A stretch of 55,541 nucleotides of DNA from an uncultured Gammaproteobacteria bacterium (lineage in GTDB: Bacteria > Patescibacteriota > Patescibacteriia > Magasanikbacterales > UBA922): the NCBI GenBank assembly GCA_964522435.1, contig CAZFUL010000003.1, positions 1 through 55,541 on the forward strand. The letters run 5' to 3'. Positions 8,895 to 29,852 of this stretch are shown one piece after another. The position numbers were made by a program, and so were the translations under genes. Every line of letters begins with the position of its first letter. Within the stretch, counting starts at the first letter, position 1. Under the pieces are notes generated by a model that was not told where the DNA came from, ran no database searches, and worked only from the letters and a program-made list of their open reading frames with translations.

Positions 8895-8922
8895 ACTATA
8901 TTTATACTATCATTTTTTTAAC

Positions 8923-8952
8923 AAAAAAAATACCCGTATGTTCTTACGGGTA
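8923..8952 (-). terminator. terminator of ychF
   Basis: TACCCGTA/TACGGGTA stem followed by T8 on the minus strand. Confidence 0.8.
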
Positions 8953-8960
8953 CGGCAGCA

Positions 8961-10034
8961 TTAGGCAATATGAAAATACACAACATCACCATCTTGAACA
9001 ATATATTCCTTCCCTTCAAGACGCATTTTACCTGTTCCCTTAATACCACTCCATCCTCCATGGCTAACAAAATCTGTATGGTGAACCACATCGGCTTTAA
9101 TAAAGCCTTTAATAAAATCGGTGTGAATTTCTCCTGCAGCAAAGGGGGCTTTCGTTCCTTGTTTTACTGTCCAGGCGCGCGTTTCCATTTCTCCGGCGGT
9201 AAAAAATGTCACAAGACCAAGAAGTTCGTATCCTGCTTTAATCATCGTATCAAGCCCAGATTCTTTCATGCCAAGATCTTCCATAAAGATAGCGGCATCT
9301 TCTGCGGACAATTCTCCTAATTCGGCTTCTGTTTTTGCGCTAATATAAATATGTGGAACGCCTTCTTCGACAATGGGTCGTTCTGTTGCAGATAGCTGTA
9401 CATCATCAATATTTACCACATAGAGCATTGGTTTCATGGTAATAAGATGGAGCTCTTTCATAATAAGCGCTTCTTCTTCTGTATAACTCAGTGCGCTTGC
9501 TCGTTTTCCACTTTCTAAATGCGCTGATACTTTTTCTAATAATGCAATTTCAGCCGCAAGTTCTTTTGCTTGAATTCCTTTTGCGCGTTTTTTCGTTTTA
9601 TCCAAACGACTAGAGACTGCTTGCCAATCTGCCAAGACCAACTCTAAATTAATAATATCCGCATCATCCTTGGGATTAACTCGTTGTTCAACATGAATAA
9701 TATTATCGTCACGAAACGCGCGAACCACATGAATAATCGCATCCGTTTCTTTAATGTGTGACAAAAAATCATTTCCTTTTCCTTCACCTTTTGACGCATT
9801 TTTTACCAATCCTGCGATATCCCAAAACTCAATCGCTGTTGGAATAATTTTTTTAGATTGTTCGGCTGTCGCAAGCCCTGCAAGTCGCGCATCAGGAACC
9901 TCAACAACACCAACATTGGGCTCAATGGTACAAAAAGGATAATTTTGCGCATCGGCCTGTTTACTTTTGGTTAAGGCATTAAATAGTGTTGATTTTCCAA
10001 CATTCGGTAATCCAACAATCCCAATTGATAGCAT
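8961..10034 (-). CDS. ychF: redox-regulated Obg-family ATPase YchF
   Basis: GIVGLPNVGKSTLFNALT, NYPFCTIEPN, DIAGLV, AGEIHTDF, EGKEYIVQDGD. Confidence 0.96.
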   Translation of the reverse strand: MLSIGIVGLPNVGKSTLFNALTKSKQADAQNYPFCTIEPNVGVVEVPDARLAGLATAEQSKKIIPTAIEFWDIAGLVKNASKGEGKGNDFLSHIKETDAIIHVVRAFRDDNIIHVEQRVNPKDDADIINLELVLADWQAVSSRLDKTKKRAKGIQAKELAAEIALLEKVSAHLESGKRASALSYTEEEALIMKELHLITMKPMLYVVNIDDVQLSATERPIVEEGVPHIYISAKTEAELGELSAEDAAIFMEDLGMKESGLDTMIKAGYELLGLVTFFTAGEMETRAWTVKQGTKAPFAAGEIHTDFIKGFIKADVVHHTDFVSHGGWSGIKGTGKMRLEGKEYIVQDGDVVYFHIA

Positions 10035-10108
10035 ACAATAACAGAATAAAAAATACGTGCGGCAATCCTATCACAAAAAACCTAATCTTTCAAGGCTGTC
10101 GCCTCGCG

Positions 10109-10420
10109 TTATTTTAATCCAGCCTCTTTCCGCAAAGAATATCCTAATACAACACGAATCAGGACAATCGCAAATAGTTGCAATGTTTGTCCGGACTGAA
10201 CAATAATTGCCGCTAAGACAATGTCTGCAGCAATGATAAATTCCAAACCAAAAATAATTCGGGTCGCAAGCTGATGGCGTACCTGCCCCATGCTGTAGCG
10301 AGGAAGGATAACTTTAACCAAGGCAATAAGAATAGAAACAAGGACAATACTTATCCCAACATATTCGACAATAAATCCAGCCTGTTCAATAATGAGTCTT
10401 ATTTGTTGATGGATAGCCAT
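10109..10420 (-). CDS. DUF1622-like small membrane protein
   Basis: GLEFIIAADIV and IVLIRVVLGYSL motifs, three hydrophobic segments. Confidence 0.75.
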   Translation of the reverse strand: MAIHQQIRLIIEQAGFIVEYVGISIVLVSILIALVKVILPRYSMGQVRHQLATRIIFGLEFIIAADIVLAAIIVQSGQTLQLFAIVLIRVVLGYSLRKEAGLK

Positions 10421-10442
10421 ATTGATTTGGATATATACATAA

Positions 10443-13400
10443 TTATAGTTGTTCTTGAGGTAGATCAATAACGACGTCTTCTTCGAGGACGAGATCGTCA
10501 CCTTCAACGGGGACGTTCAACAGCGGCGCTGACACCTCTTCTTCGACAATATCTTCAACAACGTCTTCTTGTTCTAGGCCTGGTGGTTCTCCAGGTGCCT
10601 CTTCTTCCACCAATTCATCATCAATAGATTCTTCTTCTATCACCTCTGGCAATGAGACATCTTCGGCAACCTCTTCTTCGGGCACATCAATTGGTCGATC
10701 TACAATAACCACCCAATCAAAGGTAGCATTACTTTGACCATTGAGCAGTTCTTGAACAAAAAATCCTTCTTGCGTTTTTTCTTTTATATAAATACCGTGT
10801 GACTCACTGGTGAGTGTTACATTGATACGAAAGTCTGTTTGTTCTCCTATAATATACTGTGTCACACTATCAAAAGAAATAAATGCAGCCCCTGCTTCTA
10901 ATTGTCCAGATCCAGAAAGCACATACTGGGATTGCTGCGATTGCAGTGCGTATAGTGCTGTACGCTCACCTTCTGTTTCTACCGTTGTAATAAATCGTCC
11001 ATACTCATCAATCATCCAACGCCCATCAACCCCCTCGATGCTGCGTACCTGTAATAAGCCATAGCCATTAAAATCAAGATTATTAGTAATAGAAACAATT
11101 TGTCCATTATTATTTATATCAACGTGCAGCGCTTGCGGATTATGAGCAAGTGGTTCCCCGATACTTAATGCCAACAAATCCATTTGTTCTTGTAATTCCG
11201 TAATGCTTGCTTGCAATCCATTTGCCCAACCAGAACGAACCAAGGACATAATTTTACCAGAACCCTGTTCGAGTGGTTCTAGCGCAACACCAATAATAGC
11301 AACCGTCCCTCGTTCATTTGCCTGTTCTGGATTATACCGCATGGCATGGCCTGGCGTAGTAGCACTTACTAATAAATCACCTCGTTCAATTGGACCATTT
11401 TCATCAGTGACCTTAACCGGCACACGACCGACCATAGCAAGAACCGAGGTAAATTCTGTTCTTCCACTTCCAATAGTAATTGTCGGATTTGTTGATACGA
11501 CCCCAGCAATAGCAGTCGCATAGGCCTGAGTACTCTTTGTATATCTATCAGTATCTTGCACATCTACCACCATAACGTCGCCTGGTTCTACCTGCAAACC
11601 AGGTTCAATGTCCACTCGTTCAGCTAAGTCTCCTGGGGTGCCTGGGGTACTTACTGCCACTGCCTCACCATAATAGGTTCCTGTTGTATGTACATTTCCA
11701 TTGGTAGCAATAGAAAAAACAGGCGTATTTCCATTTCTTACAGAAAATAAATACGTGGAGGTATTAATCGCCAACTCATTTCTTGTGTTAAAAATATACG
11801 CGTATTGATCCGTGCTGGTTACGGCTGTTTCAAATAACGCTGTGTGAGAAAATTTTATCGTGTTTGTTACAGAAACAGTCGTGGTATTCGCAGAAAGTGC
11901 TAATCCTCCATTAATTAACAATCCACCATTTCCTATAGAGGCACTATTACGAATGTGAATACTATCAGAAAAATAGGCTGTTTGCTCTACTTGTAGTCGT
12001 TCAATATTTGCCGTACCCAAACTACTTTGGGCGATATCGGCCCCATTTAAATGAACAATCCCTACGGTATCATCTGTGGTATCTCCAAAAAATAAATACT
12101 GCCCTGCTAAATCAATGTTTTCTGCACCCCCAATATCGGTTTCAGAAATAATGGTATATGCGCCAATGTCTCCGCGGTCTGTCCCTAAATCAATAATTTG
12201 CAAACTTTGTGCCGCATTGGTATCAGCAATATATAAATATCTTCCAGCAACAACAATGTCTTCTGGTGTACCAGGATTTGCATAATCTCCCAAATCAACC
12301 GGGTTCGTTGGGTCAGCCACACTTACCACAGAAATATCAGAGTTCCCTGGTCTCGTAATAAAAACGTGATTACCAGAAACAAAAATTTTTCTCGCAGCAG
12401 CAGCAAAGCCAAAATCTACCACACCAATTGAATTCATGTTTTGAACATCACTTGCGTCAATCACACTCAGCCCTAATGCTGTTGTCAATATATATAAATA
12501 TCTTCCACGAATTGCAATGTCTTCTGCGGTTCCGCTTCCTGCATACGTGGCAACTAATTCAGGGTCTGTTGGATCAGAAATATCCATAACATAAATATCA
12601 CTCACTCCTCCTCCTAAATAGGCATAGGCCCCCTGAACAAGCACTTCTTTAATAATAGCGTCTTGCACTGTTACAGAACTTAGCTCTTTTACCTCATAGG
12701 GATTTGATACATCTAAAATCGCAAACACCGTACCATTATTTCCCACATACACATACTCTCCGACAACGGTAATAACAGAAACATTGTATGCAGGATCAAA
12801 CACCGTCGTTGTTACAGGACTAAAGGGATCACTCATATCAACAATCGCTAAACCACCATTTCCCATCGCAACATAGGCATAATTTCCTTCTATATCAATA
12901 TCAAGGGGGCTTCCGGGTAAATTAATATCATCCCCGCTGTCATAATACGGGTCAAGAATTTTTCCTTGAATATAGGTCGTGTTTACAATCGTGGTTGTCC
13001 CTGTAAGATAACTGGTGCTGCTTACGGTGAGCGCACCAGCGATCGTCGTGTCTCCGTCTTCATCGACCCTAAATTTTTCTACCCCGCCAAGAGCAATACC
13101 AAACAGGGTTTCATCAGCATCTGCTAGGCCAGGATTAATATAGATCGTTCCCCCACCTACGGCAGATGATTGTGGGTCACCAATAAAAGTAAACCGACCG
13201 TTCGCGTCAGAATACGGAATGTAGGTAGAGGTTGCCGTGGTGCTGGGACTAATCCCCATTAAATACATGCTATTTATCGCATACCCCGCACTTGTTACTC
13301 GCTTACGTGGGGTCATTTTTTCTCCTTCAATCCAAATTTCTAAATATAATTCATCCTCTTCGGCGAATATACTTGTTGTAACCGCGTTTGTCCCTGCCCC

Positions 13401-13736
13401 CCCTAAATTTACTGAAAAAAGACCTGATGAGGGCGTTACGGCAATGGTACCCGTATTCCCCAAGGTGCCTGAAGCGGTATATAACAAATTCCCAGCAGCT
13501 TCGGCATCAAAAAGTAAAAAGGCCATGTCTTGTTCGGTACTTACCGACACCCCATCTTCAAATAGTTTTCCTTGGTACGTAATAATAGATGGAGGGGCCG
13601 CACTGTATGCCGTACTGGTTAAAAAAGTTGCAATAGAAAATAGAAAAAAAAGTAATGATAAAAGAGAGAGTGCGAGGATCATTCCCTGTGTTTGCTCTAT
13701 ACGTTTTTTAAAAAAATTACTCACAAAAAAATACAA
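10443..13736 (-). CDS. exported fibre/tailspike-like protein: N-terminal xYQG domain, LVIVD beta-propeller repeats, peptidase G2-like intramolecular chaperone, acidic tail
   Basis: Signal/TM then IITYQGKL...PRKRVTSAGYA; repeated IxVxGxYAYV..LxIxDxSDPxxP; GDLAE...IAGVVSTNP...VGRVPVKV..ENGPIERGDLLVSA..PGHAM; start may be M19 (13682). Confidence 0.8.
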   Translation of the reverse strand: MYFFVSNFFKKRIEQTQGMILALSLLSLLFFLFSIATFLTSTAYSAAPPSIITYQGKLFEDGVSVSTEQDMAFLLFDAEAAGNLLYTASGTLGNTGTIAVTPSSGLFSVNLGGAGTNAVTTSIFAEEDELYLEIWIEGEKMTPRKRVTSAGYAINSMYLMGISPSTTATSTYIPYSDANGRFTFIGDPQSSAVGGGTIYINPGLADADETLFGIALGGVEKFRVDEDGDTTIAGALTVSSTSYLTGTTTIVNTTYIQGKILDPYYDSGDDINLPGSPLDIDIEGNYAYVAMGNGGLAIVDMSDPFSPVTTTVFDPAYNVSVITVVGEYVYVGNNGTVFAILDVSNPYEVKELSSVTVQDAIIKEVLVQGAYAYLGGGVSDIYVMDISDPTDPELVATYAGSGTAEDIAIRGRYLYILTTALGLSVIDASDVQNMNSIGVVDFGFAAAARKIFVSGNHVFITRPGNSDISVVSVADPTNPVDLGDYANPGTPEDIVVAGRYLYIADTNAAQSLQIIDLGTDRGDIGAYTIISETDIGGAENIDLAGQYLFFGDTTDDTVGIVHLNGADIAQSSLGTANIERLQVEQTAYFSDSIHIRNSASIGNGGLLINGGLALSANTTTVSVTNTIKFSHTALFETAVTSTDQYAYIFNTRNELAINTSTYLFSVRNGNTPVFSIATNGNVHTTGTYYGEAVAVSTPGTPGDLAERVDIEPGLQVEPGDVMVVDVQDTDRYTKSTQAYATAIAGVVSTNPTITIGSGRTEFTSVLAMVGRVPVKVTDENGPIERGDLLVSATTPGHAMRYNPEQANERGTVAIIGVALEPLEQGSGKIMSLVRSGWANGLQASITELQEQMDLLALSIGEPLAHNPQALHVDINNNGQIVSITNNLDFNGYGLLQVRSIEGVDGRWMIDEYGRFITTVETEGERTALYALQSQQSQYVLSGSGQLEAGAAFISFDSVTQYIIGEQTDFRINVTLTSESHGIYIKEKTQEGFFVQELLNGQSNATFDWVVIVDRPIDVPEEEVAEDVSLPEVIEEESIDDELVEEEAPGEPPGLEQEDVVEDIVEEEVSAPLLNVPVEGDDLVLEEDVVIDLPQEQL

Positions 13737-13838
13737 CGGTTCAATAGCTTAAAAAGGCAATTAGATATAATTTGCCATCTTTATTCTATCATAATTGCTG
13801 TATTTTTCCGATACGTTGCTTGTGCAAAACATTCTTTT

Positions 13839-16526
13839 TTATACCCACGCACCCCAGCGCTTCCCAATGTTGATGTCGGCGATCACAGGAACAGCCAGTG
13901 TTACCACCGCCTCCATCGCTTGTTTTATTTCAGTAGCAATTTTTTTACTTGCTTCGTTTTTTATTTCAAATACCAACTCATCATGTACTTGCAACAAAAA
14001 GCGTACGTCATCTTTTACATAATAACTCTGTTTTTCGCACAATTCATCCACGGCAATCATTGCTAATTTTACAATATCCGCCTGGGTGCCCTGTATCGGC
14101 ATATTTACCGCCATACGCTCTGCCGCCGTACGAAGTTGGTGATTGGGTGAGTTAAGTTCTGGAATATAGCGTCTTCTCCCATAGAGGGTTTCTGTATACC
14201 CATCTCTTTTTCCCTTGTTAACGACGTCCTCTAAATAGGTTTTGACACCTGCAAAACTCGTAAAATATTTTTTAATAAATTCACGCGCTTCAGCATGACT
14301 CATGCCAGTCCGTGCCGCTAATCCAAACGGTCCCATACCATATAACACACCAAAATTTACTTCTTTGGCAGAACGACGCATCTCGGGTGTTACTTCTTCT
14401 AATGAGACCCCATGAATCACGGCGGCGGTCGCTTTATGCACATCTTCTCCTTTTTCAAAAATACTCATGAGCTGTGTGTCTTGAGCCAACGACGCTACTA
14501 TACGCAATTCAATTTGTGAATAATCTGCCGCGACCAAATCATACCCATCTTCTGACAAAAATGCTTCGCGAATTTTTTTACCGTACTCGCTGCGAATCGG
14601 AATATTTTGTAAATTGGGATCAGTACTCGATAATCGTCCTGTTGCAGCAACGGCTTGATTATATGACGTATGAATTCTCCCCGTTTGTGCATTTACCAAG
14701 GTTGGGAGTACATCAATATAGGTGTTTTGTAATTTCGTTAATTCTCGATGTTCTTCTATTAAAGAAATAATCGGGTGCATGTTTTTTAATTTTTCCAATT
14801 CACTCGCGGCAGTGGAATATCCTGTTTTTCCTTTTTTTATTCCCTCGGTAGGTAATGCTAATCGGTCAAACAAGATATCTCGTAGCTGTACAGAGGAATT
14901 CACATTAAACACCTCGCCAGCATGCCCGTGAATTTCTTTTACCATCTCAGTAATTTCTTTTGCTACCTGTACAGACAATTCTGACAACAATTCAGTGTCC
15001 ACTTTTATTCCTGTTAATTCCATGCGTGCTAATACAAAAGTAACATTCATTTCTAATGAAAAAAACAGTTCTTCTTGTTGCGCTTCTTTCAATTTTTTTC
15101 GTTGCACCTCGTATACCTCAAACAAATATTGGTAGTCTGTGACAATGTGTTGTACATCATCAGCAAACAACGATGCCTGTTGCTCTTCACCAATATCAAT
15201 AGCCGTCTCTCGTAAAATAATACTCCGAACATCATGGGCTCGGGTGGTGGCATTATTAATATACGAAGCAATCATGGTATCAAATATCTGTGCCTGTATC
15301 TCTGTTCCGTAACGGAGCAATACTTTTATTAATTGTTTCAAATCATGACCAATAATAAAAAGATTCTTTTGTTCAAACAAGGCAAACACCTGTTCTTTAT
15401 TTTTTTTCGAAAGTGCCGCAATATCAATAGAGTAGGTCTTTTTTTCTGTAACAAATACCAAGGCATGTAGCGGATCTGAAATAGAATTTGTCCCTGCTAA
15501 CACTTCTTTACACACAATCATTTTTTGTTTTTTTAACACAGCGACCGTGTCAGCAAGCTCGCCATCGCGAACGAGAGTATAGGGTCGTGGCTTTTCTTTT
15601 TTTATTGTTGTTTTTTCTTCTTGCTTTTTCTCACTCCCTGGCAAGCGTTTAATTAATGAAAAAAATTCAAAGCGTTTCAGTAACGCAATTATTGCCTGTT
15701 GGTCATAGTCATGAAACGGGATAAGTGGAAGGCTAATTGGCGCATTTGGGACATCTCGTACAATCGTTGCCAATTGTTTACTCAAAAAGGCCGCGTCCTT
15801 ATCTGCGACAAGTTTTTTTATAACAGAAGGACTCAATGTGGTGGTATTGGTATCAATATGTGTGTATAACTCTTCAATACTTCTTTCTTTTATCAAAATG
15901 TCGGTAGCTGTTTTTTTCCCAATTCCTTTTACCCCAGGAATATTATCCGAAGGATCCCCCATGAGTGCTTTAAAATCTGGAATTTGTTTTGCCGCAAAAC
16001 CAAAGACCTCTCGTACTTTCTGTTCATCGTAGGCGGTAAATTCAGACATACCGCGGCCAAGTAAATACACTTTTACCCGCGAGTCCTTCACCAGTTGCAG
16101 CAGATCTCTATCACCGGTTACCACAAGTACATCCGTGTCTGTTGTTTCTTCTGTAACAACACGACTCAGGGTCCCAATCATGTCATCGGCTTCATATCCC
16201 GCTTGTTCATATATAGGAATACCAAAGGCATGTACCACGTCATATACCAAAGGAATCTGCGCATAGAGCGCATCATCCGCTTTTTCTCTGGTGGCTTTAT
16301 ATTCTGTGTACAGTTCATCTCGAAATGTGCCTCCCGCAACATCAAAACAAACCGCCACATAGGTTGGATGGATATCTTGAAGAATTTTTAGCAGCATGGA
16401 GGTAAAACCAAACACCGCGTTTACCATAGTGCCGTCCGCAACGGTCAGTGGCGGCAAGGCATGGTATGCACGGTGAATAATGGCATGGCCATCAATAATA
16501 ACCAGGGTTTTTCTTTCTGTTTTCAT
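13839..16526 (-). CDS. polA: DNA polymerase I
   Basis: 5'-3' exonuclease (IDGHAIIHRAYHA, YEADD, GDPSDNIPGV), polymerase motifs DYSQIELR, KEVNFGVLYG, LLQVHDELVFE. Confidence 0.97.
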   Translation of the reverse strand: MKTERKTLVIIDGHAIIHRAYHALPPLTVADGTMVNAVFGFTSMLLKILQDIHPTYVAVCFDVAGGTFRDELYTEYKATREKADDALYAQIPLVYDVVHAFGIPIYEQAGYEADDMIGTLSRVVTEETTDTDVLVVTGDRDLLQLVKDSRVKVYLLGRGMSEFTAYDEQKVREVFGFAAKQIPDFKALMGDPSDNIPGVKGIGKKTATDILIKERSIEELYTHIDTNTTTLSPSVIKKLVADKDAAFLSKQLATIVRDVPNAPISLPLIPFHDYDQQAIIALLKRFEFFSLIKRLPGSEKKQEEKTTIKKEKPRPYTLVRDGELADTVAVLKKQKMIVCKEVLAGTNSISDPLHALVFVTEKKTYSIDIAALSKKNKEQVFALFEQKNLFIIGHDLKQLIKVLLRYGTEIQAQIFDTMIASYINNATTRAHDVRSIILRETAIDIGEEQQASLFADDVQHIVTDYQYLFEVYEVQRKKLKEAQQEELFFSLEMNVTFVLARMELTGIKVDTELLSELSVQVAKEITEMVKEIHGHAGEVFNVNSSVQLRDILFDRLALPTEGIKKGKTGYSTAASELEKLKNMHPIISLIEEHRELTKLQNTYIDVLPTLVNAQTGRIHTSYNQAVAATGRLSSTDPNLQNIPIRSEYGKKIREAFLSEDGYDLVAADYSQIELRIVASLAQDTQLMSIFEKGEDVHKATAAVIHGVSLEEVTPEMRRSAKEVNFGVLYGMGPFGLAARTGMSHAEAREFIKKYFTSFAGVKTYLEDVVNKGKRDGYTETLYGRRRYIPELNSPNHQLRTAAERMAVNMPIQGTQADIVKLAMIAVDELCEKQSYYVKDDVRFLLQVHDELVFEIKNEASKKIATEIKQAMEAVVTLAVPVIADINIGKRWGAWV

Positions 16527-16610
16527 AGTGCCTCAATCATAGCATAGCCCCGTCTTGAAAAAAAGCACTCCGCATGCTATTATTGCCAAGACATCATCGT
16601 GTTTTTTCAT

Positions 16611-20256: not shown

Positions 20257-21375
20257 TTATTGCCGTATAGGCATGACAATATACGTAAAATCATCCGAGG
20301 ACTTTGCTTTAAAAATACACGGCGAATCCGCACTATTCATTTTACATTCTAATATATCGTCTTCAATATGCTGTACGCCTTCTAACACATAGCGATAATT
20401 GAGTAACACACTGCCGCCCTCTCCTAGGGCCTCTGCATCAATTTCTGAGGCGTGTTCTCCTGTTTGTGCGCTGGTAGATGAAATACGACAGTGTTTTTTT
20501 TGTGCATCAATAGAAAGAGAAATCGCATTTACTCCTGCGTGACTAAACAAACTCGCGGCTTTAACACTATTAATGAACGCATCTTTAGAAATTTCTGCCG
20601 TGGTTTGAAATTGCGTTGGAATAATTTGTCGATAATCTGGGTAGTTGCCATCAATTAATCGAGACATCATATCAATGTCGTCTGTACGCAAGCTGATTTG
20701 CCCCTCTCCCAAAGAAAGGGTCACTGTTTTTGTTTCAGAGGCAATAACCCCAAGCAGGCGAACAAACTCGGCAACAGTTCGTGCGGGAATAATACATTGT
20801 TTTTCTTCTTGCATATGAGCAAGCATAATTTTACTTTCGGACAAACGGTACGAATCTGTTGCAGCAAACACGACCTCTTTTGTTTCTTTTGCAAAAAAAG
20901 AACAAAAAATCCCAGAGAGCTCTGGACGAATTTCATTTTTTGCCGCTGCAAACATGACATTGCTAAAGGCTTCCTTTAGTGCCTGCGTTTCAATGACCAC
21001 ATCAAATTGACGCGTCATTGAGGGAATCACCGGATATTCATCAGGACCGTCTCCTTTAATTTTTGTACTACTGCCGCTACTATGAATAATAACCTGTGCT
21101 CCTTCTAAAGAAAGCGTAATCTGTTCATCGCGTAATAGCGTGACATAATCCAATAACGTTTTGGCAGGAACAGTAAATCCACCAGGTTGTTCTACCTTTG
21201 CTCGAACTTGTGCGGTCACGGCTAATTCTAAATTCGTACTTAATAAAGAAACACCACTTTCTTGTGCTCGTATATATATATGAGAAAGAATAGGAAGATT
21301 GCTTGGCTTCATCGCAATCCCACTTGCAACATGTAGTCCTCGTAATAAGTTATCCCGTGTACAAGTAAATTTCAT
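20257..21375 (-). CDS. dnaN: DNA polymerase III beta sliding clamp
   Basis: STNLELAV, ATDSYRL, SRLIDGNYPDYRQIIP, YIVMPIR; downstream of dnaA. Confidence 0.96.
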   Translation of the reverse strand: MKFTCTRDNLLRGLHVASGIAMKPSNLPILSHIYIRAQESGVSLLSTNLELAVTAQVRAKVEQPGGFTVPAKTLLDYVTLLRDEQITLSLEGAQVIIHSSGSSTKIKGDGPDEYPVIPSMTRQFDVVIETQALKEAFSNVMFAAAKNEIRPELSGIFCSFFAKETKEVVFAATDSYRLSESKIMLAHMQEEKQCIIPARTVAEFVRLLGVIASETKTVTLSLGEGQISLRTDDIDMMSRLIDGNYPDYRQIIPTQFQTTAEISKDAFINSVKAASLFSHAGVNAISLSIDAQKKHCRISSTSAQTGEHASEIDAEALGEGGSVLLNYRYVLEGVQHIEDDILECKMNSADSPCIFKAKSSDDFTYIVMPIRQ

Positions 21376-21384
21376 AATTAACAA

Positions 21385-21725
21385 CTATTAACAATTACCA
21401 ATTTTTAAATAAATATATTTTTTAATACTAGTAGTAGTAGTACTGTGCATAGTGGGGAAAAGCCGTATTTGTCGCTAAAGAGAGCACTGTTTTTATTCGA
21501 CTCGTCTGGGGGACGACGGGCCTGAGCTTGGTGATATCTTGGGTTTTTTTATTGCTCAATAAATCTTGGCCAACTGTCTGTGTATAGATTCTTTGTTATC
21601 CCCGTTGAATGCAGGATGTTTTTCACACCTTACACACAATAATTTCTTGTGGATCTTTATGTGGATACCGTCTTGGTATAACAGGGGGATAAGGCAAATT
21701 GTATAGACTAGTCTAGTCAAACACA
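21385..21725. other. replication origin oriC (dnaA-dnaN intergenic): DnaA boxes, DnaA-trios, AT-rich unwinding element
   Basis: AT-rich 21385-21422; trios TAA TAC TAG TAG TAG TAG TAC (21423-21443); adjacent boxes TGTGCATAG (21444-52) and TGGGGAAAA (21453-61); further boxes TTTTTCACA (21619-27), TTACACACA (21630-38), TGTGGATAC (21660-68). Confidence 0.85.
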
Positions 21726-23105
21726 CTATGACATGCTCGTTGCGTATAATTTTTGCTTAATCATGTCGATATCTTGTTTTACTTTTAAATCGCTATCGAG
21801 CGCCTGTTCAATTTTCGTATGCGCATGAATGGCGGTGGTATGATCACGTCCGCCTAATTCATGTCCAATTGCCGGGTAGGATAGTTGTAGCTCGTGACGA
21901 AGAAGGTACATAATAATTTGTCGAGGAAAAGATACTTTCTTTTCTCGACTTTTGCCCATCATATCATCGTTTTTGATATCATAAAATTCACAAACAGCCG
22001 TAACAATGTCTCTTGGTGTTACGGATTTGCGCATAGACTTGCTCTCAAAACTCGCAAGAATGGATTTTACTGTTTCTTTGTTGGGGACTTCGTTATTGAT
22101 TTGGTAATAAACAGAAATCTTATTTAAGGCACCCTCTAGTTCACGGATATTGCTTTGGATAGACGTGGCAATTAATTCCAAGAGCTCTTTGGGTAATTCA
22201 ATATTTTTTTCTTGACATTTTTGTTGCAAAATCGCAATACGAGTTTCTACATTAGGAGAAGAAATGTCAGCAATCATGCCCCATTCAAAACGACTGCGCA
22301 AACGATCTTCGAGCGCAGGGATTGCTTTGGGTGGTCGATCACTCGTCATAACCACTTGTTTTCCGTTTTGGTGGAGTTCATTAAAGGTATGAAAAAATTC
22401 TTCTTGGGTTTGCTCTTTCCCACCAATAAATTGAATATCATCAATAAGCATGAGGTCAACATTGCGATAGCGGGTTTTAAAATCTTTTGCTTTTCCTTCT
22501 TTTACTGCGTTGACAAAATCATTCGTAAATTTTTCAGAACTCACATACATGATCTTTGCTTGAGGATTTTTTTGTAATAAGACATGGCCAATGGCTTGAA
22601 TAAGGTGAGTTTTTCCCAATCCAACATCCCCATAAATAAATAAGGGGTTATAGGCTTCTCCAGGACGATCCGCAACCGCACGGGCCGCTGCATGAGCCAA
22701 TTCATTTTCTTTTCCTACAATAAATGTGTCAAAAGTATACTTTGCTTGCAAACCAAACTGTTGCGCACGGACGCCGGTATTTGAGTAAATAGGCGTTTTT
22801 ACCGAAGAAACACTGGGTTCTTCTTGCACAAAACATTCTTGCTCACTAATATGTTTAATGTTTTCTACTTTATAATCAATGCGTTTAACCGGTTTTCCCG
22901 TAACGCGCTCAATGGTTTTAATTAAATCAGAGTTATATTTTTTTTCTAACCAGCTTTTGGTAAAGGTATTTGGCACACAAACCACCAACTGCCCACTGTT
23001 ATATTCTCCAATCCCCGTATTGCGAAACCAGGTGGTAAAATTTGCTTTAGAGAGGCGGAGTTCAAAATCAGCAAGAACAGCTTGCCATATTTCATAATTC
23101 GTCAT
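21726..23105 (-). CDS. dnaA: chromosomal replication initiator DnaA
   Basis: YTFDTFIVG, YNPLFIYGDVGLGKTHL, LIDDIQF, LRSRFEWG, GGRDHTTAIHA; true start MTNYEIWQ. Confidence 0.97.
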   Translation of the reverse strand: MTNYEIWQAVLADFELRLSKANFTTWFRNTGIGEYNSGQLVVCVPNTFTKSWLEKKYNSDLIKTIERVTGKPVKRIDYKVENIKHISEQECFVQEEPSVSSVKTPIYSNTGVRAQQFGLQAKYTFDTFIVGKENELAHAAARAVADRPGEAYNPLFIYGDVGLGKTHLIQAIGHVLLQKNPQAKIMYVSSEKFTNDFVNAVKEGKAKDFKTRYRNVDLMLIDDIQFIGGKEQTQEEFFHTFNELHQNGKQVVMTSDRPPKAIPALEDRLRSRFEWGMIADISSPNVETRIAILQQKCQEKNIELPKELLELIATSIQSNIRELEGALNKISVYYQINNEVPNKETVKSILASFESKSMRKSVTPRDIVTAVCEFYDIKNDDMMGKSREKKVSFPRQIIMYLLRHELQLSYPAIGHELGGRDHTTAIHAHTKIEQALDSDLKVKQDIDMIKQKLYATSMS

Positions 23106-23229
23106 ACGAGGATGCTGGTTATGCGAGGGTAAAAAATGAGAAGAAGGGAAAATTCCTTCCCATTTTAACACATTTGAGCAGAATACATAGGGCACAAATA
23201 TGGCTGTGTAAAGGCTATAGTGGGTAATG

Positions 23230-23258
23230 TGGGGATAACCTGTGGATTGTGGGGATAA
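23230..23258. promoter_or_regulatory. DnaA-box cluster upstream of dnaA
   Basis: TGGGGATAA (23230-38), TGTGGATTG (23241-49), TGGGGATAA (23250-58). Confidence 0.7.
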
Positions 23259-23272
23259 CCCCTCTGGGGCGC

Positions 23273-23301
23273 TTGACAAATACGAGGCGCTCACTTATAA
23301 T
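23273..23301 (+). promoter_or_regulatory. consensus sigma70 promoter of rpmH
   Basis: TTGACA, 17 nt, TATAAT. Confidence 0.9.
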
Positions 23302-23337
23302 GAGCTCACTTTTGTACCGAAATTCATTATACGCAAT

Positions 23338-23514
23338 ATGCCAAAAAGAACCTACCAACCGAAAAAAAGAAAACGTCAAAAATCACATGGCTTTCGTTCT
23401 CGTATGGCAACGAAAAATGGCCGCAGCGTGTTAAAACGACGTCGCGATAAAGGTCGCCATGACCTTACTGTCAGTGATGAAAAGAAAGGGAAACGCCTTC
23501 GCAAAACCAGATAA
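23338..23514 (+). CDS. rpmH: 50S ribosomal protein L34 (58 aa, C-terminal extension)
   Basis: [36 protein letters not shown]; divergent from dnaA. Confidence 0.95.
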
Positions 23515-23525
23515 TTGTTTCTTAC

Positions 23526-23560
23526 ACACCTCGCCAGAAATGGCGGGGTGTTCTTTTTTA
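23526..23560 (+). terminator. terminator after rpmH
   Basis: ACACCTCGCCA-GAAA-TGGCGGGGTGT then TCTTTTTT. Confidence 0.8.
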
Positions 23561-23599
23561 TAGTAAACTAGGGCTACCGGGCTTACCCAGACTTAAGCT

Positions 23600-23977
23600 A
23601 TGCTTCTCCAAAAGAACCGTTTAAAAAAAACCAGCGACATTGAAATCGTTTTTGAAAACGGTCGTTTTGTAGGTGGAGCGCTTACCACGCTTAAGGTGTG
23701 GCATATTATTCCAGAAAAATTTCCCAAACGAGGTTATACAAAAGACGACCTTAAAATTGCCTTTGTCGTCAGTAAAAAAATACATAAAAGTGCTGTTCAA
23801 CGGAACCGGCTCAAACGGCAAATGCGTGAGGTTGTTCGTTTATTACTTAAAGAAAACAAGCTCAGAGCAGGAAATATGCTGTTAGTGATGGCTAAGGCGG
23901 AAATGATTGGGAAAACATATCAAGAGATTGAAACAGATTTATTGGCTGTATTACGCCGAACCAGACTTTTAAGTTAA
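23600..23977 (+). CDS. rnpA: ribonuclease P protein component
   Basis: NRLKK..D...VF..G, IAFVVSKKIHKSAVQRNRLKRQMRE (RNR motif). Confidence 0.93.
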   Translation: MLLQKNRLKKTSDIEIVFENGRFVGGALTTLKVWHIIPEKFPKRGYTKDDLKIAFVVSKKIHKSAVQRNRLKRQMREVVRLLLKENKLRAGNMLLVMAKAEMIGKTYQEIETDLLAVLRRTRLLS

Positions 23978-24366: not shown

Positions 24367-24432
24367 GTTATTTTATAAAAATAATTTGGCTAATATAAGC
24401 CAAGTTCTATATTTATCACTCTCGATGTACTA

Positions 24433-24461
24433 TTGACAAAACTGCTTTTTTGTGGTATTAT
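24433..24461 (+). promoter_or_regulatory. sigma70 promoter upstream of GC-rich orphan
   Basis: TTGACA, 17 nt, TGg-TATTAT (extended -10). Confidence 0.78.
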
Positions 24462-24612
24462 GTCTCGTTCTATCCTGAAAGCCGATCCTGGCTGATGGGT
24501 AGAGCGCCCAAGCTCTTTTCGCCAATATACCGTTGTGGTTGAGGCGAACCAATCGATAACGGGTCTGCGGACCCATGCTGCGGCAGCCTATGCTGACCGC
24601 CGGAGATGCCCC

Positions 24613-24996
24613 ATGCGCGCCCTCATCCTCGTAGTTCTGTCCTACGTTCTGGTTCCCGCCTGGATCGCCGCCGCCCAGGCTCAGCCTGTGGTTTCCAAAG
24701 AGTGTCGGCCCCGCCTCGTTCAGGGGGTGCTGCTCACCCCCGTCGGGTGTGAGCTCGCCCTGAAGAACAAGCACGACAACGCCACGGAGCAGAAGCGGCT
24801 GGCGGACGTCCGCAAGGACAAGGCGGCGGCCAAGCTGGCGGAGGCCCAGCAGGACCTGAAGGATACTGCCGAAGCCGCTCGCGCGGCTGAGATGCAGGTG
24901 ACGGAGCGTCCCAAGCTCCGCACCACCCTCCCCAGCCTGCCCGTGCCCGGCACACGTGGCCCCGCCGTTGATCTCGGCGGCAAAGTGGAGTTCTAA
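24613..24996 (+). CDS. GC-rich orphan secreted coiled-coil protein (127 aa)
   Basis: GGAG before ATG, signal peptide MRALILVVLSYVLVPAWIAAAQA, CRP..C pair, Ala/Lys/Glu-rich helix; strong GC3 bias. Confidence 0.72.
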   Translation: MRALILVVLSYVLVPAWIAAAQAQPVVSKECRPRLVQGVLLTPVGCELALKNKHDNATEQKRLADVRKDKAAAKLAEAQQDLKDTAEAARAAEMQVTERPKLRTTLPSLPVPGTRGPAVDLGGKVEF

Positions 24997-25176
24997 CGAA
25001 CTCCGACTCGGAATAGCTTGACCGAGTATAAACAACATCAGCTCTGCGCTCTGTGCGTGTGTACCACATATCCCCGGTACCCAATCAGAGAAGCAGAAGG
25101 CGAAGCTCACCCCTTCGCCTCCCCAACTATCATCATCTGCTTTGCAGGTGGTCATGAAAGGGAAAAAATACACAAG

Positions 25177-29142: not shown

Positions 29143-29772
29143 ATGCTGCGCATGCTGGTCATGATTTCGTTTCTCGTCTCTACTCAGGCGTTTGCTCTTG
29201 GCTATGTCCAGAGCACGGTCGAGACGGCCAACGGCGAAGAGGCAATTCTTTTCGAAGTATACCTTGATCGCAAAGCTCAACCGCAAGTGTGTCGGTTGGT
29301 GGCAGAGGGAGAGCCGGTCTGCGAGACTTTCCCCTTTCCTATTGGCTGGGCAGCGTTTGTGCTCATCACCGAGGGCTGGGGCGAGGCCTATGTGGGACCA
29401 ACCGTTGCTCCAACGGAATGGTTGGAACTTACCGCGTTTGCGGGAGTACAACAAGGCGACAAGGGATTGGAAGCACGCTATGCTGCAAGCGTGTTTCTGC
29501 AACAACAACCATTCGCTCTTCTTGCTTCTGTGGAGTTCGATCACCACGGCACAGAAGGTGTTTGGTACGATTGCATAGCAACTGGCAGCTGGGATGAGCT
29601 GATCACGGTGGGAATCCAAGCCCGCCGTTACGTTGGTATTGGTCCCCGCATTGAGGTGAGTGGCTCTGATGGGGCCATCAAGTTCTGGGGTAGTTGGACA
29701 CCCATTGATCCAGAACAACAACAGGTTCTCGACGGTGCTCGAGGCATGATCGGGCTCATGTTGATCAACTGA
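29143..29772 (+). CDS. orphan exported beta-strand-rich protein (beta-barrel-like)
   Basis: Signal peptide ending QAFA, alternating hydrophobic strands with Gly/Pro turns and Trp/Tyr; GC-richer than host. Confidence 0.65.
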   Translation: MLRMLVMISFLVSTQAFALGYVQSTVETANGEEAILFEVYLDRKAQPQVCRLVAEGEPVCETFPFPIGWAAFVLITEGWGEAYVGPTVAPTEWLELTAFAGVQQGDKGLEARYAASVFLQQQPFALLASVEFDHHGTEGVWYDCIATGSWDELITVGIQARRYVGIGPRIEVSGSDGAIKFWGSWTPIDPEQQQVLDGARGMIGLMLIN

Positions 29773-29852
29773 CAAGAAACTATAGGAGATAGAGGACGAC
29801 GAAATGGGGTTCGTCTCCCCCACTTGCTTGTGTGGGGAAAAACACGAGCAGG

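What the first reader, a model, noticed from the sequence alone, without database searches (positions are those of the whole stretch)
10443..13736. Chromosomal phage-tailspike-like fibre with an autocleaving chaperone
Seen: signal/TM, a TYQGKL...PRKRVTSAGYA N-terminal module, about 7 LVIVD repeats, a beta-rich stalk, then GDLAE (11619-11633) opening a domain with VGRVPVKV and GDLLVS..PGHAM, and an acidic tail. Known: D-x-A-E starts the peptidase G2-type intramolecular chaperone of trimeric phage appendages (phi29/GA-1 gp12), and Bdellovibrio uses mosaic trimeric fibres with self-cleaving chaperones for prey recognition. No phage genes flank this gene. Inference: a domesticated trimeric host-attachment fibre.
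Basis: partly seen in the sequence, partly recalled or inferred. Interest (0 to 1): 0.66.

Follow-up and report, generated by a model that had tools for sequence, protein, structure and literature searches.

The report
Secreted fibre protein with phage-type self-cleaving chaperone
A chromosomal gene of an ultra-small (Patescibacteria/CPR) bacterium encodes a secreted surface-fibre-like protein whose conserved ends frame a fast-evolving propeller, and one of those ends is a compact relative of the self-cleaving folding chaperone of phage phi29 tail appendages; thousands of unannotated CPR proteins share this design, so they are candidates for how these bacteria attach to their hosts.

Summary
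ORF 10443-13736 (-) encodes 1097 aa, and every quoted motif sits at the stated coordinates. There are seven LVIVD repeats, which model as a 7-bladed propeller, and an 85-aa tail that is 40% acidic.

The GDLAE domain is a compact relative of the phi29 gp12 (Peptidase G2) intramolecular chaperone. The query itself fails Pfam PF11962. A family profile, however, hits the released gp12 chaperone, with D703 aligned to its first residue (E 1.7e-6; hhalign 94%). Five homologues pass Pfam's threshold. The best PDB fold match is uncleaved gp12. D-x-A-E is kept in 337 of 346 domain copies.

The gene is not a prophage remnant. It sits in conserved synteny (polA-fibre-DUF1622-ychF) in Magasanikbacteria. 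It belongs to a very large Patescibacteria family with a signal peptide, a conserved 125-aa N-module, a variable middle and a G2-like cassette. This resembles Bdellovibrio MAT fibres, which use S74 chaperones instead.

Unlike in phages, the chaperone is not terminal: about 255 conserved residues follow it. Trimerisation, cleavage and adhesion remain inferred. I rate it a new variant of a known kind.

The parts
10443..13736 (-). Whole ORF, 1097 aa plus stop (stop codon 10443-10445). Residue numbers in this report count from the TTG at 13736. Alternative starts are GTG 13724 and ATG 13682.
13602..13736 (-). Sec-type signal peptide, aa 1-45: KKR n-region, hydrophobic core, and an A-Y-S|A site predicted by eye.
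   Evidence: Homologues have equivalent sites. The model shows a helix at aa 3-38.
13227..13601 (-). Conserved N-module, aa 46-170 (TYQGKL ... PRKRVTSAGYA). It is a compact beta-rich domain that starts right after the signal peptide. It is proposed, not shown, to be the cell-proximal attachment or assembly handle.
   Evidence: pLDDT is about 90. Identity across 24 orthologues is 55%. It is present in 95 of 148 proteins found through the G2-like domain. The profile gives 1523 hits, and nearly all named ones are Patescibacteria. There is no PDB sequence relative.
12927..13226 (-). Stalk 1, aa 171-270: a fibre-like linker containing the motif LFGIALGGVEKFRVDEDGDTTIAGALTV.
   Evidence: The monomer model has low confidence here, pLDDT 50-80. 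Identity is 49%.
12027..12926 (-). Seven LVIVD repeats forming a 7-bladed beta-propeller, aa 271-570. This is the fast-evolving, presumed ligand-binding module.
   Evidence: Pfam LVIVD 1.6e-30. Seven repeats found by regex. pLDDT above 90. Fold matches to WD40/BamB at E 1e-12. Only 25% identity among orthologues.
11634..12026 (-). Stalk 2, aa 571-701: a beta-rich segment that leads into the predicted scissile G702|D703 bond, whose G702 codon follows at nt 11631-11633. It contains YLFSVRNGNTPVFSIATNGNVHTTGTYYG.
   Evidence: pLDDT is 45-70 in the monomer model. Identity is 47%. There is no PDB sequence relative.
11619..11633 (-). GDLAE, aa 702-706. The scissile bond is predicted between G702 and D703. 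D703 and E706 align with phi29 gp12 D692 and E695.
11217..11630 (-). Compact G2-like intramolecular chaperone domain, aa 703-840 (includes VGRVPVKV and GDLLVS..PGHAM).
11163..11216 (-). Amphipathic helix, aa 841-858 (LQASITELQEQMDLLALS), directly after the chaperone body. It may form a coiled coil.
   Evidence: The coiled-coil reading is an inference.
10698..11024 (-). Conserved C-terminal beta-sandwich domain, aa 905-1013. It lies downstream of the predicted cleavage site.
   Evidence: pLDDT is about 85-90. Identity is 46%. It is present in 124 of 193 G2-bearing family members. Fold matches to H-type lectins 3wmp and 2ce6 are only weak, and there is no PDB sequence hit.
10446..10697 (-). Disordered acidic tail, aa 1014-1097 (40% D+E).
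10109..10417 (-). Neighbouring DUF1622 small membrane protein, 25 nt downstream of the fibre gene. The adjacency is conserved in orthologous loci. Any functional link is unknown.

Best explanation
The gene encodes a Sec-exported, mosaic surface fibre of a Magasanikbacteria-like (Patescibacteria/CPR) bacterium.

Proposed mechanism, in order:
1. The signal peptide is removed at about S45|A46.
2. Three chains associate. Association is nucleated by the compact phi29-gp12-type (G2-like) intramolecular chaperone (aa 703-840) and the helix that follows it. This sets the register of the upstream beta-stalk.
3. D703 and E706 then cut the G702|D703 bond. This frees a 395-aa C-terminal fragment made of the chaperone, a beta-sandwich and the acidic tail.
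4. The mature fibre (about aa 46-702) is held at the cell surface by the conserved N-module. It displays three fast-evolving 7-bladed LVIVD propellers that bind a ligand on a host cell or on a surface.

Shown here: the domain homologies, the conservation of the catalytic motif, the variable centre between conserved ends, chromosomal synteny, and membership of a very large CPR family.

Inferred: trimerisation, cleavage, surface retention through the N-module, and the adhesive role.
For: G2-like chaperone:
- Homologues P0035, P0036, P0080, P0208 and P0240 pass Pfam PF11962's gathering score, with 28.9-39.3 bits against a threshold of 25.
- The family profile A2 hits the released phi29 chaperone 3gqh/3gqk at E 1.7e-6. 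The profile's invariant D aligns to chain residue 1 (DFAEYFE). It also hits 6qz9 (5.7e-6), the uncleaved 3suc, which carries DFAQ (2e-4), and the 'chaperon domain D4' of tailspike Dpo31 (5.5e-3).
- hhalign of A2 against the gp12 C-terminus gives 93.9% probability, E 1.6e-7.
- The best PDB fold match of the AF2 model is premature gp12 3suc (E 1.6e-3). No entry described as mature gp12 appears among the 50 matches shown.
- In BFVD there are 48 viral hits at E<=1e-3. The best is 7e-12 with about 148 columns at about 3 A. They include 'Preneck appendage protein barrel', tail proteins and Mtd-N proteins.
- D, A and E are invariant in alignments A1 and A2. D-x-A-E is present in 337 of 346 domain copies, while the P1 residue varies.
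- In phage contigs the same compact domain, 39-43% identical, ends the protein exactly. One lies next to a tail fibre J homologue and an endolysin. It also ends PA5oct virion protein gp359.

Cellular, vertically inherited gene:
- The order polA-fibre-DUF1622-ychF-VIT1-Prx-SOD is conserved.
- ychF lies downstream of the fibre gene in 15 of the 29 related loci examined.
- Neighbours are 57-74% identical, against 39% for the body of the fibre.

Mosaic design:
- Identity among 24 orthologues is N-module 55% and G2 57%, against 25% for the propeller.
- 95 of 148 proteins found through the G2 profile carry the N-module at aa ~40-170. Most of the rest look like fragments lacking the true N-terminus.

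Fibre and trimer hints:
- The stalks are modelled poorly as a monomer.
- The fold neighbours include phage proteins that I know to be homotrimers: gp12, tailspikes 7eea and 7w1c, and the gpD/SHP-type cement proteins. Their trimeric state is from my own knowledge.
Against: - The query itself gives no Pfam G2 hit, even at E 10.
- The broader profile A1 found nothing relevant in PDB and gave only 2% probability in hhalign.
- PDB fold scores are modest (TMq 0.29).
- The phi29 domain has an insert of about 50 residues that is absent here.
- The chaperone is not C-terminal. About 255 residues follow it, including a beta domain with 46% identity. Across the CPR family a median of 229 residues follows the last G2-like copy. 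That is odd for a part that is discarded.
- Most family members carry two tandem copies, an arrangement seen in none of the phage proteins examined here.
- A globular propeller in the middle of each chain is unusual for a trimeric fibre.
- No multimer prediction, no proteomic evidence and no localisation data were available.
- Nothing ties the propeller to a ligand.
Confidence: 0.55

Rival explanations
1. Same fold, different use. The G2-like domain is a retained structural or oligomerisation module, or a self-cleaving module whose two halves stay together as in SEA or GAIN domains. In this reading the conserved C-terminal cassette (G2-like domain, beta-sandwich and acidic tail) is the cell-wall or S-layer-proximal anchor, and the N-module is distal.
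For: - The domain is never terminal in the CPR family. A median of 229 residues follows it, and only 4 of 193 proteins have fewer than 50.
- The downstream beta domain is conserved (46% identity) and is present in 124 of 193 members.
- Tandem duplication of the domain is the rule (156 of 193).
- The fold is shared with non-cleaved phage capsid cement proteins 8hdt_G and 5wk1_K.
- The P22 tailspike fin is a precedent for an uncleaved auto-chaperone (PMC4690869).
Against: - D-x-A-E is kept in 97% of copies, and both catalytic positions are invariant in A1 and A2. That points to selection for catalysis.
- There is no sortase, SLH or transmembrane anchor at the C-terminus.
- A universally conserved distal tip would be odd for a recognition protein.
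Confidence: 0.2
2. It is a general envelope or matrix protein (S-layer-associated fibril, biofilm or substrate adhesin, or a secreted propeller enzyme). It would have no role in recognising a host cell.
For: - LVIVD and 'choice-of-anchor B' propellers occur in many free-living bacteria and archaea, in surface proteins with T9SS, PGF or FN3 contexts.
- The gene lies among housekeeping genes in one syntenic copy.
Against: - The propeller evolves much faster than its flanks and neighbours, at 25% against 55-74% identity. That is the pattern expected of a recognition surface.
- By the papers searched, all cultivated Patescibacteria are obligate episymbionts and their host-binding molecules are largely unknown (PMC12206443 abstract).
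Confidence: 0.15
3. It is a recently captured prophage tail fibre or a prophage remnant.
For: The chaperone domain is shared with phage tail-fibre proteins at 33-43% identity.
Against: - The protein has a Sec signal peptide.
- There are no phage genes within at least 10 kb on either side.
- Synteny with polA and ychF is conserved across many Magasanikbacteria species, with 39-55% divergence of the gene itself.
- GC content is the same as the surroundings.
- The N-module was found in no phage protein here.
Confidence: 0.03

Closest known systems
Bacillus phage phi29 gp12 pre-neck appendage auto-chaperone (MEROPS G2; Pfam PF11962; PDB 3GQH, 3GQK, 3SUC)
   Same: - The D-x-A-E motif sits at the domain start, and the query's D703 aligns to the first residue of the released chaperone.
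[quoted passage not shown]
- Later motifs are shared: IGVIS/AGVVS, and GQIAVRI/GRVPVKV.
- The domain follows a beta-rich stalk.

   Different: - The query fails the Pfam model.
- The domain is compact and lacks phi29's insert of about 50 residues.
- It is not at the C-terminus.
- The host protein is a Sec-secreted cellular protein with a propeller, not a pectate-lyase-type tailspike.
- Cleavage has not been demonstrated.
Compact 'preneck-appendage barrel' domains that end phage tail-fibre proteins (PA5oct gp359; IMG/VR contigs L032 and L033; BFVD A0A8S5T1T8 and others)
   Same: This is the closest sequence and fold relative of the domain. Identity is 33-43%, DLAE is at the start, about 148 columns align at 2.5-3.7 A, and the domain size is the same.
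   Different: In phages the domain ends the protein. There is no signal peptide, no N-module and no downstream beta domain or acidic tail.
Bdellovibrio bacteriovorus MAT (mosaic adhesive trimer) fibres (PMC10769870)
   Same: - Chromosomal and phage-like.
[quoted passage not shown]
- The ligand-binding parts are variable.
- A self-cleaving chaperone is present in many members.
- A large paralogous family.
- A proposed role in recognising another bacterium.
   Different: - MATs use S74 (SDxxxK) chaperones or non-cleaving tips, not G2-like ones.
- No S74 hit was found here.
- MAT variability is at the C-terminal tip; here it is a central propeller.
- The phylum and the envelope type differ.
- Homology of the two N-domains was not tested.
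Peptidase S74 intramolecular chaperones (K1F endosialidase, T5 pb1, GA-1 gp12, eukaryotic MyRF)
   Same: The logic is the same: a C-terminal module templates a trimeric beta-fibre and then cuts itself off.
   Different: S74 has a different fold and a different catalytic Ser-Lys dyad. It is present in some LVIVD proteins (P0046, P0090) but not in this one.
LVIVD-repeat / choice-of-anchor B surface propellers (PF08309, TIGR04312)
   Same: There are seven LVIVD blades with strong Pfam support.
   Different: Here the propeller is inserted between fibre-like stalks and framed by the CPR N-module and the G2-like cassette.

Membership tests
Peptidase G2 / phi29 gp12-type intramolecular chaperone (PF11962) | Significant match of the protein itself to the Pfam Peptidase_G2 model | tested here: not met
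   There is no hit at E<=1 on the full protein, nor at E<=10 on aa 689-998. Homologues P0035, P0036, P0080, P0208 and P0240 do pass, with 28.9-39.3 bits against a cut-off of 25.
Peptidase G2 / phi29 gp12-type intramolecular chaperone (PF11962) | Profile-level sequence homology to the solved gp12 chaperone | tested here: met
   A2 profile against PDB: 3gqh 1.7e-6, 6qz9 5.7e-6, 3suc 2e-4. hhalign gives 93.9%, E 1.6e-7. Only the first ~60-80 residues align. The broader profile A1 failed.
Peptidase G2 / phi29 gp12-type intramolecular chaperone (PF11962) | Catalytic Asp and Glu (D-x-x-E) at the cleavage site, with Asp as the first residue of the released domain | tested here: met
   D703 and E706 align to the D and E of DFAEYFE at residues 1-4 of chain 3gqh. 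The uncleaved 3suc carries DFAQ. Both positions are invariant in A1 and A2, and D-x-A-E is present in 337 of 346 copies.
Peptidase G2 / phi29 gp12-type intramolecular chaperone (PF11962) | Beta-stranded chaperone body fold | tested here: met
   The top PDB match is 3suc (E 1.6e-3, 185 columns, TMq 0.29). In BFVD, 'Preneck appendage protein barrel' scores E 1.9e-10, TMt 0.68, rmsd 2.5 A. The model is of moderate quality (pLDDT 71; domain blocks 80-94).
Peptidase G2 / phi29 gp12-type intramolecular chaperone (PF11962) | Located at the extreme C-terminus of the precursor | tested here: not met
   The domain ends at about aa 840 of 1097. Across the family a median of 229 residues follows it. Phage relatives are terminal.
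Peptidase G2 / phi29 gp12-type intramolecular chaperone (PF11962) | Autoproteolysis and chaperoning of a homotrimer | not testable with these tools
   Only monomer structure prediction was available, and there are no proteomic data.
Bdellovibrio MAT fibre family | Conserved beta-rich N-terminal domain of about 130 aa immediately after the signal peptide | tested here: inconclusive
   An analogous module exists here: aa 46-170, pLDDT about 90, conserved family-wide. No MAT N-domain sequence or structure could be obtained, so homology was not compared.
Bdellovibrio MAT fibre family | S74 chaperone with SDxxxK, or a defined NS74 tip | tested here: not met
   There is no Peptidase_S74 hit. A G2-like domain is present instead.
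Bdellovibrio MAT fibre family | Trimeric fibre along its whole length | not testable with these tools
   No multimer prediction was available. The stalk regions have low confidence as a monomer.
LVIVD repeat beta-propeller (PF08309) | Tandem LVIVD repeats forming a propeller | tested here: met
   E 1.6e-30. Seven repeats. The model is a 7-bladed propeller with WD40/BamB fold matches.
Prophage tail fibre | Embedded among phage structural or lysis genes, with no secretion signal | tested here: not met
   The neighbours are housekeeping genes, synteny is conserved, and a signal peptide is present.

The most novel reading that the evidence does not exclude
Patescibacteria as a phylum-level group use a very large, so far unannotated family of Sec-secreted mosaic fibres as their host-recognition proteins. 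The family has a common N-terminal handle, swappable middle modules such as this LVIVD propeller, and a phi29-type self-cleaving chaperone cassette. This would be a cellular counterpart of phage receptor-binding proteins, and the middle modules would set host range in episymbiosis.
Probability: 0.3. Interest if true: 0.8.

Novelty: new variant of a known kind. Interest (0 to 1): 0.62.

Why it matters
All cultivated Patescibacteria live attached to other microbes, and how they identify and bind a host is described as largely unknown (PMC12206443).

This gene is an ordinary, syntenic member of a protein family with tens of thousands of cluster representatives. Every family member whose source name was checked is called a hypothetical protein. 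The family has the hallmarks of phage receptor-binding proteins: a conserved attachment end, a fast-evolving binding module and a self-cleaving folding chaperone.

If the fibres are adhesins, they give concrete, clonable candidates for host-range determinants in uncultivated CPR bacteria. They would also be a second, independent case after the Bdellovibrio MATs of bacteria that live on other bacteria using phage-style fibres.

The work also extends the G2-type chaperone to a compact form that Pfam's model mostly misses. In cells this form occurs with a non-terminal, often duplicated architecture.

No paper in the searchable library links Patescibacteria with G2 or intramolecular-chaperone fibres. 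That library is incomplete.

Tried and rejected
Searches that gave nothing useful:
- Pfam, NCBIfam and PHROGs on the query show only LVIVD and propeller signals. Pfam on the isolated C-terminal, N-terminal and stalk pieces at E<=10 gave nothing useful.
- phmmer of the whole protein against PDB gave nothing.
- The profile of the whole C-terminal half (A1) against PDB gave only spurious RpoD hits. hhalign of A1 against gp12 gave 2%. The signal appeared only with a domain-only, more diverse profile, A2.
- A single-sequence search with the N-module gave only 4 hits. The N-module, the C beta domain and stalk 2 have no PDB sequence relatives.
- The full-length fold search was swamped by propellers, so it says nothing about the N-module.
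- The MAT paper's supplement holds no N-domain sequences. Xiang et al. 2009 is not held.
- Contigs from related wastewater and freshwater runs were laid on the locus to look for strain-level hypervariability. At about 4x coverage the result was too fragmentary to interpret.

Readings rejected:
- An S74 chaperone: no hit.
- A membrane-anchored protein: the hydrophobic segment ends in a conserved small-residue cleavage site.
- A prophage remnant: contradicted by synteny.
- An H-type lectin identity for the C beta domain: only weak fold hits (E 0.13-0.48) and no sequence support.


Full report
**Observation.** The ORF at 10443-13736 on the minus strand is real and encodes 1097 aa counted from the TTG start.

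The N-terminus reads FFKKRIEQTQG-MILALSLLSLLFFLFSIATFL-TSTAYS|AAPP. Homologues have the same layout, with small residues at positions -3 and -1 directly before the shared module. I therefore read it as a cleavable Sec signal rather than a membrane anchor. This is by eye, because no predictor was available.

Seven LVIVD-type repeats with a period of about 43 aa lie at aa 296-558. Pfam detects the family at E 1.6e-30. AlphaFold2 builds a 7-bladed propeller with pLDDT above 90, and it matches WD40 and BamB propellers. The last 85 residues are 40% acidic.

The flanking genes are polA, a DUF1622 membrane protein, ychF, VIT1, peroxiredoxin, SOD, a class A PBP, dnaN and dnaA. None is a phage gene.

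**Is the GDLAE domain a G2-type chaperone?** The query itself does not match Pfam Peptidase_G2 even at E 10, and it has no PDB relative by phmmer. Four independent lines nevertheless support the assignment.

- *Homologues pass Pfam.* Five homologues that align with the query across this domain pass Pfam's curated threshold: P0035, P0036, P0080, P0208 and P0240, with 28.9-39.3 bits against a threshold of 25.
- *Profile hits on the solved chaperone.* A profile of the domain alone from 17 diverse family members (A2) hits the crystallised, released phi29 gp12 chaperone (3gqh/3gqk) at E 1.7e-6. The profile's invariant Asp lands on residue 1 of that chain (DFAEYFE...). It also hits full-length gp12 (6qz9), the uncleaved 'pre-mature' form 3suc, whose sequence reads DFAQ, and a 'chaperon domain D4' of tailspike Dpo31. 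hhalign gives 93.9% probability.
- *Fold matches.* An AF2 model of aa 690-1010 (pLDDT 71, with the domain blocks at 80-94) has 3suc as its best PDB match. No entry described as mature gp12 appears among the 50 matches shown, which suggests the match lies in the chaperone part. In the viral structure library there are 48 hits at E<=1e-3. The best is 7e-12, with about 148 columns at about 3 A. The hits include 'Preneck appendage protein barrel', tail proteins and Mtd-N proteins.
- *Motif conservation.* D, A and E of D-x-A-E are invariant in both family alignments. The motif is present in 337 of 346 domain copies in the proteins collected here, while the residue before the Asp varies freely (Y, F, G, A, S, L). 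The exceptions are mostly D-Y-M-E.

The domain is a compact version of phi29's. phi29 has an insert of about 50 residues between the IGVIS and GQIAVRI segments that is missing here. The nearest relatives by sequence are equally compact domains that end phage tail-fibre proteins exactly:
- PA5oct virion protein gp359, 33% identical, starting ...YADLAERYE;
- a 571-aa protein on a 44-kb IMG/VR contig, 39% identical and starting DLAE, which lies two genes after a tail fibre J homologue and before an endolysin;
- a 441-aa protein on another viral contig, 43% identical.

**What kind of gene is it?** The best homologues, at 36-47% identity over most of the length, are hypothetical proteins of Candidatus Magasanikbacteria and other Patescibacteria. 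A scan of species-representative genomes found the C-terminal cassette in 27 loci, and their record titles are mostly Magasanikbacteria.

The locus is syntenic. The order fibre-DUF1622-ychF-(response regulator)-VIT1-Prx-SOD is seen in P0012's genome, and polA-fibre-DUF1622-ychF-VIT1-Prx-SOD in P0007's, as in the window. ychF lies downstream of the fibre gene in 15 of the 29 related loci examined. Against P0012's locus, ychF and Prx are 74% identical, VIT1 63%, SOD 59% and DUF1622 57%. The fibre is 55% identical at its N-terminal end and 39% over the rest.

Across 24 orthologues, identity to the query by region is:

| Region | Identity |
|---|---|
| N-module | 55% |
| Stalk 1 | 49% |
| LVIVD propeller | 25% |
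| Stalk 2 | 47% |
| G2-like domain | 57% |
| Helix/linker | 30% |
| C beta domain | 46% |
| Acidic tail | 25% |

So this is a vertically inherited chromosomal gene with conserved ends and a fast-evolving centre.

**The wider family.** An exhaustive profile search with the G2-like domain finds 29,654 cluster representatives at E<=1e-3 and 23,566 at E<=1e-10. The best-scoring hits are mostly proteins of 1000-5700 aa. All seven sampled clusters that carry a source name are hypothetical proteins. Five are labelled Patescibacteria, and the other two carry no organism label.

Of the 148 new top hits, 95 also carry the query's N-terminal module at aa ~40-170. Most of the remainder look like fragments lacking the true N-terminus. 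A profile of the N-module finds 1523 further proteins among the candidates scored. The named ones are Parcubacteria, Kaiserbacteria, Saccharibacteria, Nomurabacteria, Zambryskibacteria and Magasanikbacteria, apart from one record labelled Terriglobales.

Most members have no Pfam domain at all, apart from an occasional G2 hit.

The C-terminal cassette is stereotyped. It usually holds two G2-like copies about 263 aa apart (156 of 193 proteins), then a beta domain of about 118 aa (124 of 193), then a tail. A median of 229 residues follows the last G2-like copy, and only 4 of 193 proteins have fewer than 50. The query has one copy, the beta domain (aa 905-1013, pLDDT about 85-90) and the acidic tail. 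It is the only such gene in the window.

**Most likely mechanism.** By analogy with phi29 gp12, the precursor is exported and three chains associate through the chaperone domain and the amphipathic helix at aa 841-858. phi29 gp12 is a homotrimer whose intramolecular chaperone is absent from the virion (PMC9863714). This association sets the register of stalk 2. D703 and E706 then cut the G702|D703 bond. That leaves a mature fibre of about 657 aa made of N-module, stalk 1, propeller and stalk 2, and a free fragment of 395 aa.

The N-module is the most conserved part across the phylum. As proposed for the N-domain of MAT fibres (PMC10769870), it would hold the fibre on the cell. The variable propellers would bind the partner.

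Shown here: the homologies, the motif conservation, the mosaic conservation pattern and the synteny. Inferred: trimerisation, cleavage, localisation and ligand binding.

Weak points:
- the match to phi29 covers mainly the first 60-80 residues;
- the PDB fold scores are modest;
- the chaperone is not terminal;
- tandem copies and a conserved downstream domain are not explained by a simple 'fold and discard' model.

**Rivals.** (a) The cassette could be a retained or non-covalently held self-cleaving tether or anchor rather than a discarded chaperone. (b) The protein could be a general envelope or substrate adhesin, unrelated to host recognition. (c) It could be a prophage remnant, which synteny, the signal peptide and base composition contradict.

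**Comparison with known systems.** It works like a phage fibre with an intramolecular chaperone, and like the Bdellovibrio MAT fibres.
- *G2 membership:* the motif, the profile homology and the fold are met. The Pfam threshold on the query itself and the C-terminal position are not.
- *MAT membership:* the S74 criterion is not met, and N-domain homology could not be tested.
Its chaperone is described as the S74-like T5/K1F type, and phi29's as distinct (PMC4690869).

**Novelty and score.** Full-text searches found no paper connecting Patescibacteria with G2 or intramolecular-chaperone fibres, or with LVIVD. The library is incomplete, so this is absence of evidence only.

I rate the finding a new variant of a known kind. 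It is a cellular, Sec-secreted, CPR-wide mosaic fibre family that uses a compact, non-terminal G2-like chaperone cassette. The gene in this window is a typical member. Interest is 0.62. Its value lies in giving testable candidates for host recognition by episymbiotic ultra-small bacteria.

Noticed in passing
window 24400-25000 and 29200-29800: There are GC-rich islands (54-69% and 52-57% GC) in a window of about 40% GC. The first holds a + strand ORF (24535-24996) that reads like a small secreted protein (MRALILVVLSYVLVPAWIAAAQA...). It has no Pfam or Rfam match. In the second island, the two longest overlapping ORFs have no Pfam match. Horizontal transfer, an unannotated RNA or an assembly chimera are all possible.
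   Followed up: partly
window 39823-44766 (+): A second giant protein (1647 aa) has Rax2/DUF5122 beta-propeller and Calx-beta matches. It lacks both the N-module and the G2-like domain. It is probably another surface protein.
   Followed up: partly
window 10109-10417 (-); L003 12008-12337; L004; L006; L008; L010: A DUF1622 small membrane protein follows the fibre gene directly. The gap is 25 nt in the window and 17-28 nt in the loci with called genes. It is seen in the window and in six other loci, counting P0007's contig. It may be co-transcribed. Whether it has any role in anchoring or export is unknown.
   Followed up: partly
window 20257-23977: dnaN (20257-21384, -), dnaA (21726-23294, -) and rnpA (23600-23977, +) lie together, so the window spans the replication-origin region. 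The cumulative GC skew reaches its minimum at about 26-28 kb.
   Followed up: no
family members P0036, P0080 and most of P0125-P0272: Most family members carry two tandem G2-like domains about 263 aa apart, and both usually keep D-x-A-E. That implies two self-cleavage events per chain, an arrangement seen in none of the phage proteins examined here.
   Followed up: partly
L023 9506-9892: A second N-module gene lies about 2.5 kb downstream of the fibre orthologue in one Magasanikiibacteriota genome. This suggests local paralogue clusters in some genomes.
   Followed up: no
L007, L009, L014, L017, L019-L021, L024, L026: Several GTDB records titled 'uncultured Gammaproteobacteria' (TPA_asm) carry this Magasanikbacteria-type fibre gene, and three of them (L007, L009, L017) also carry ychF at 62-67% identity. 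The titles look like placeholders or mislabels.
   Followed up: no
window 8900-16600 in public runs X1-X12: The locus is found nearly identical in a wastewater metagenome (82% of sampled words). A relative about 97-98% identical occurs in another metagenome. Further traces are in wastewater, sludge and freshwater runs.
   Followed up: partly
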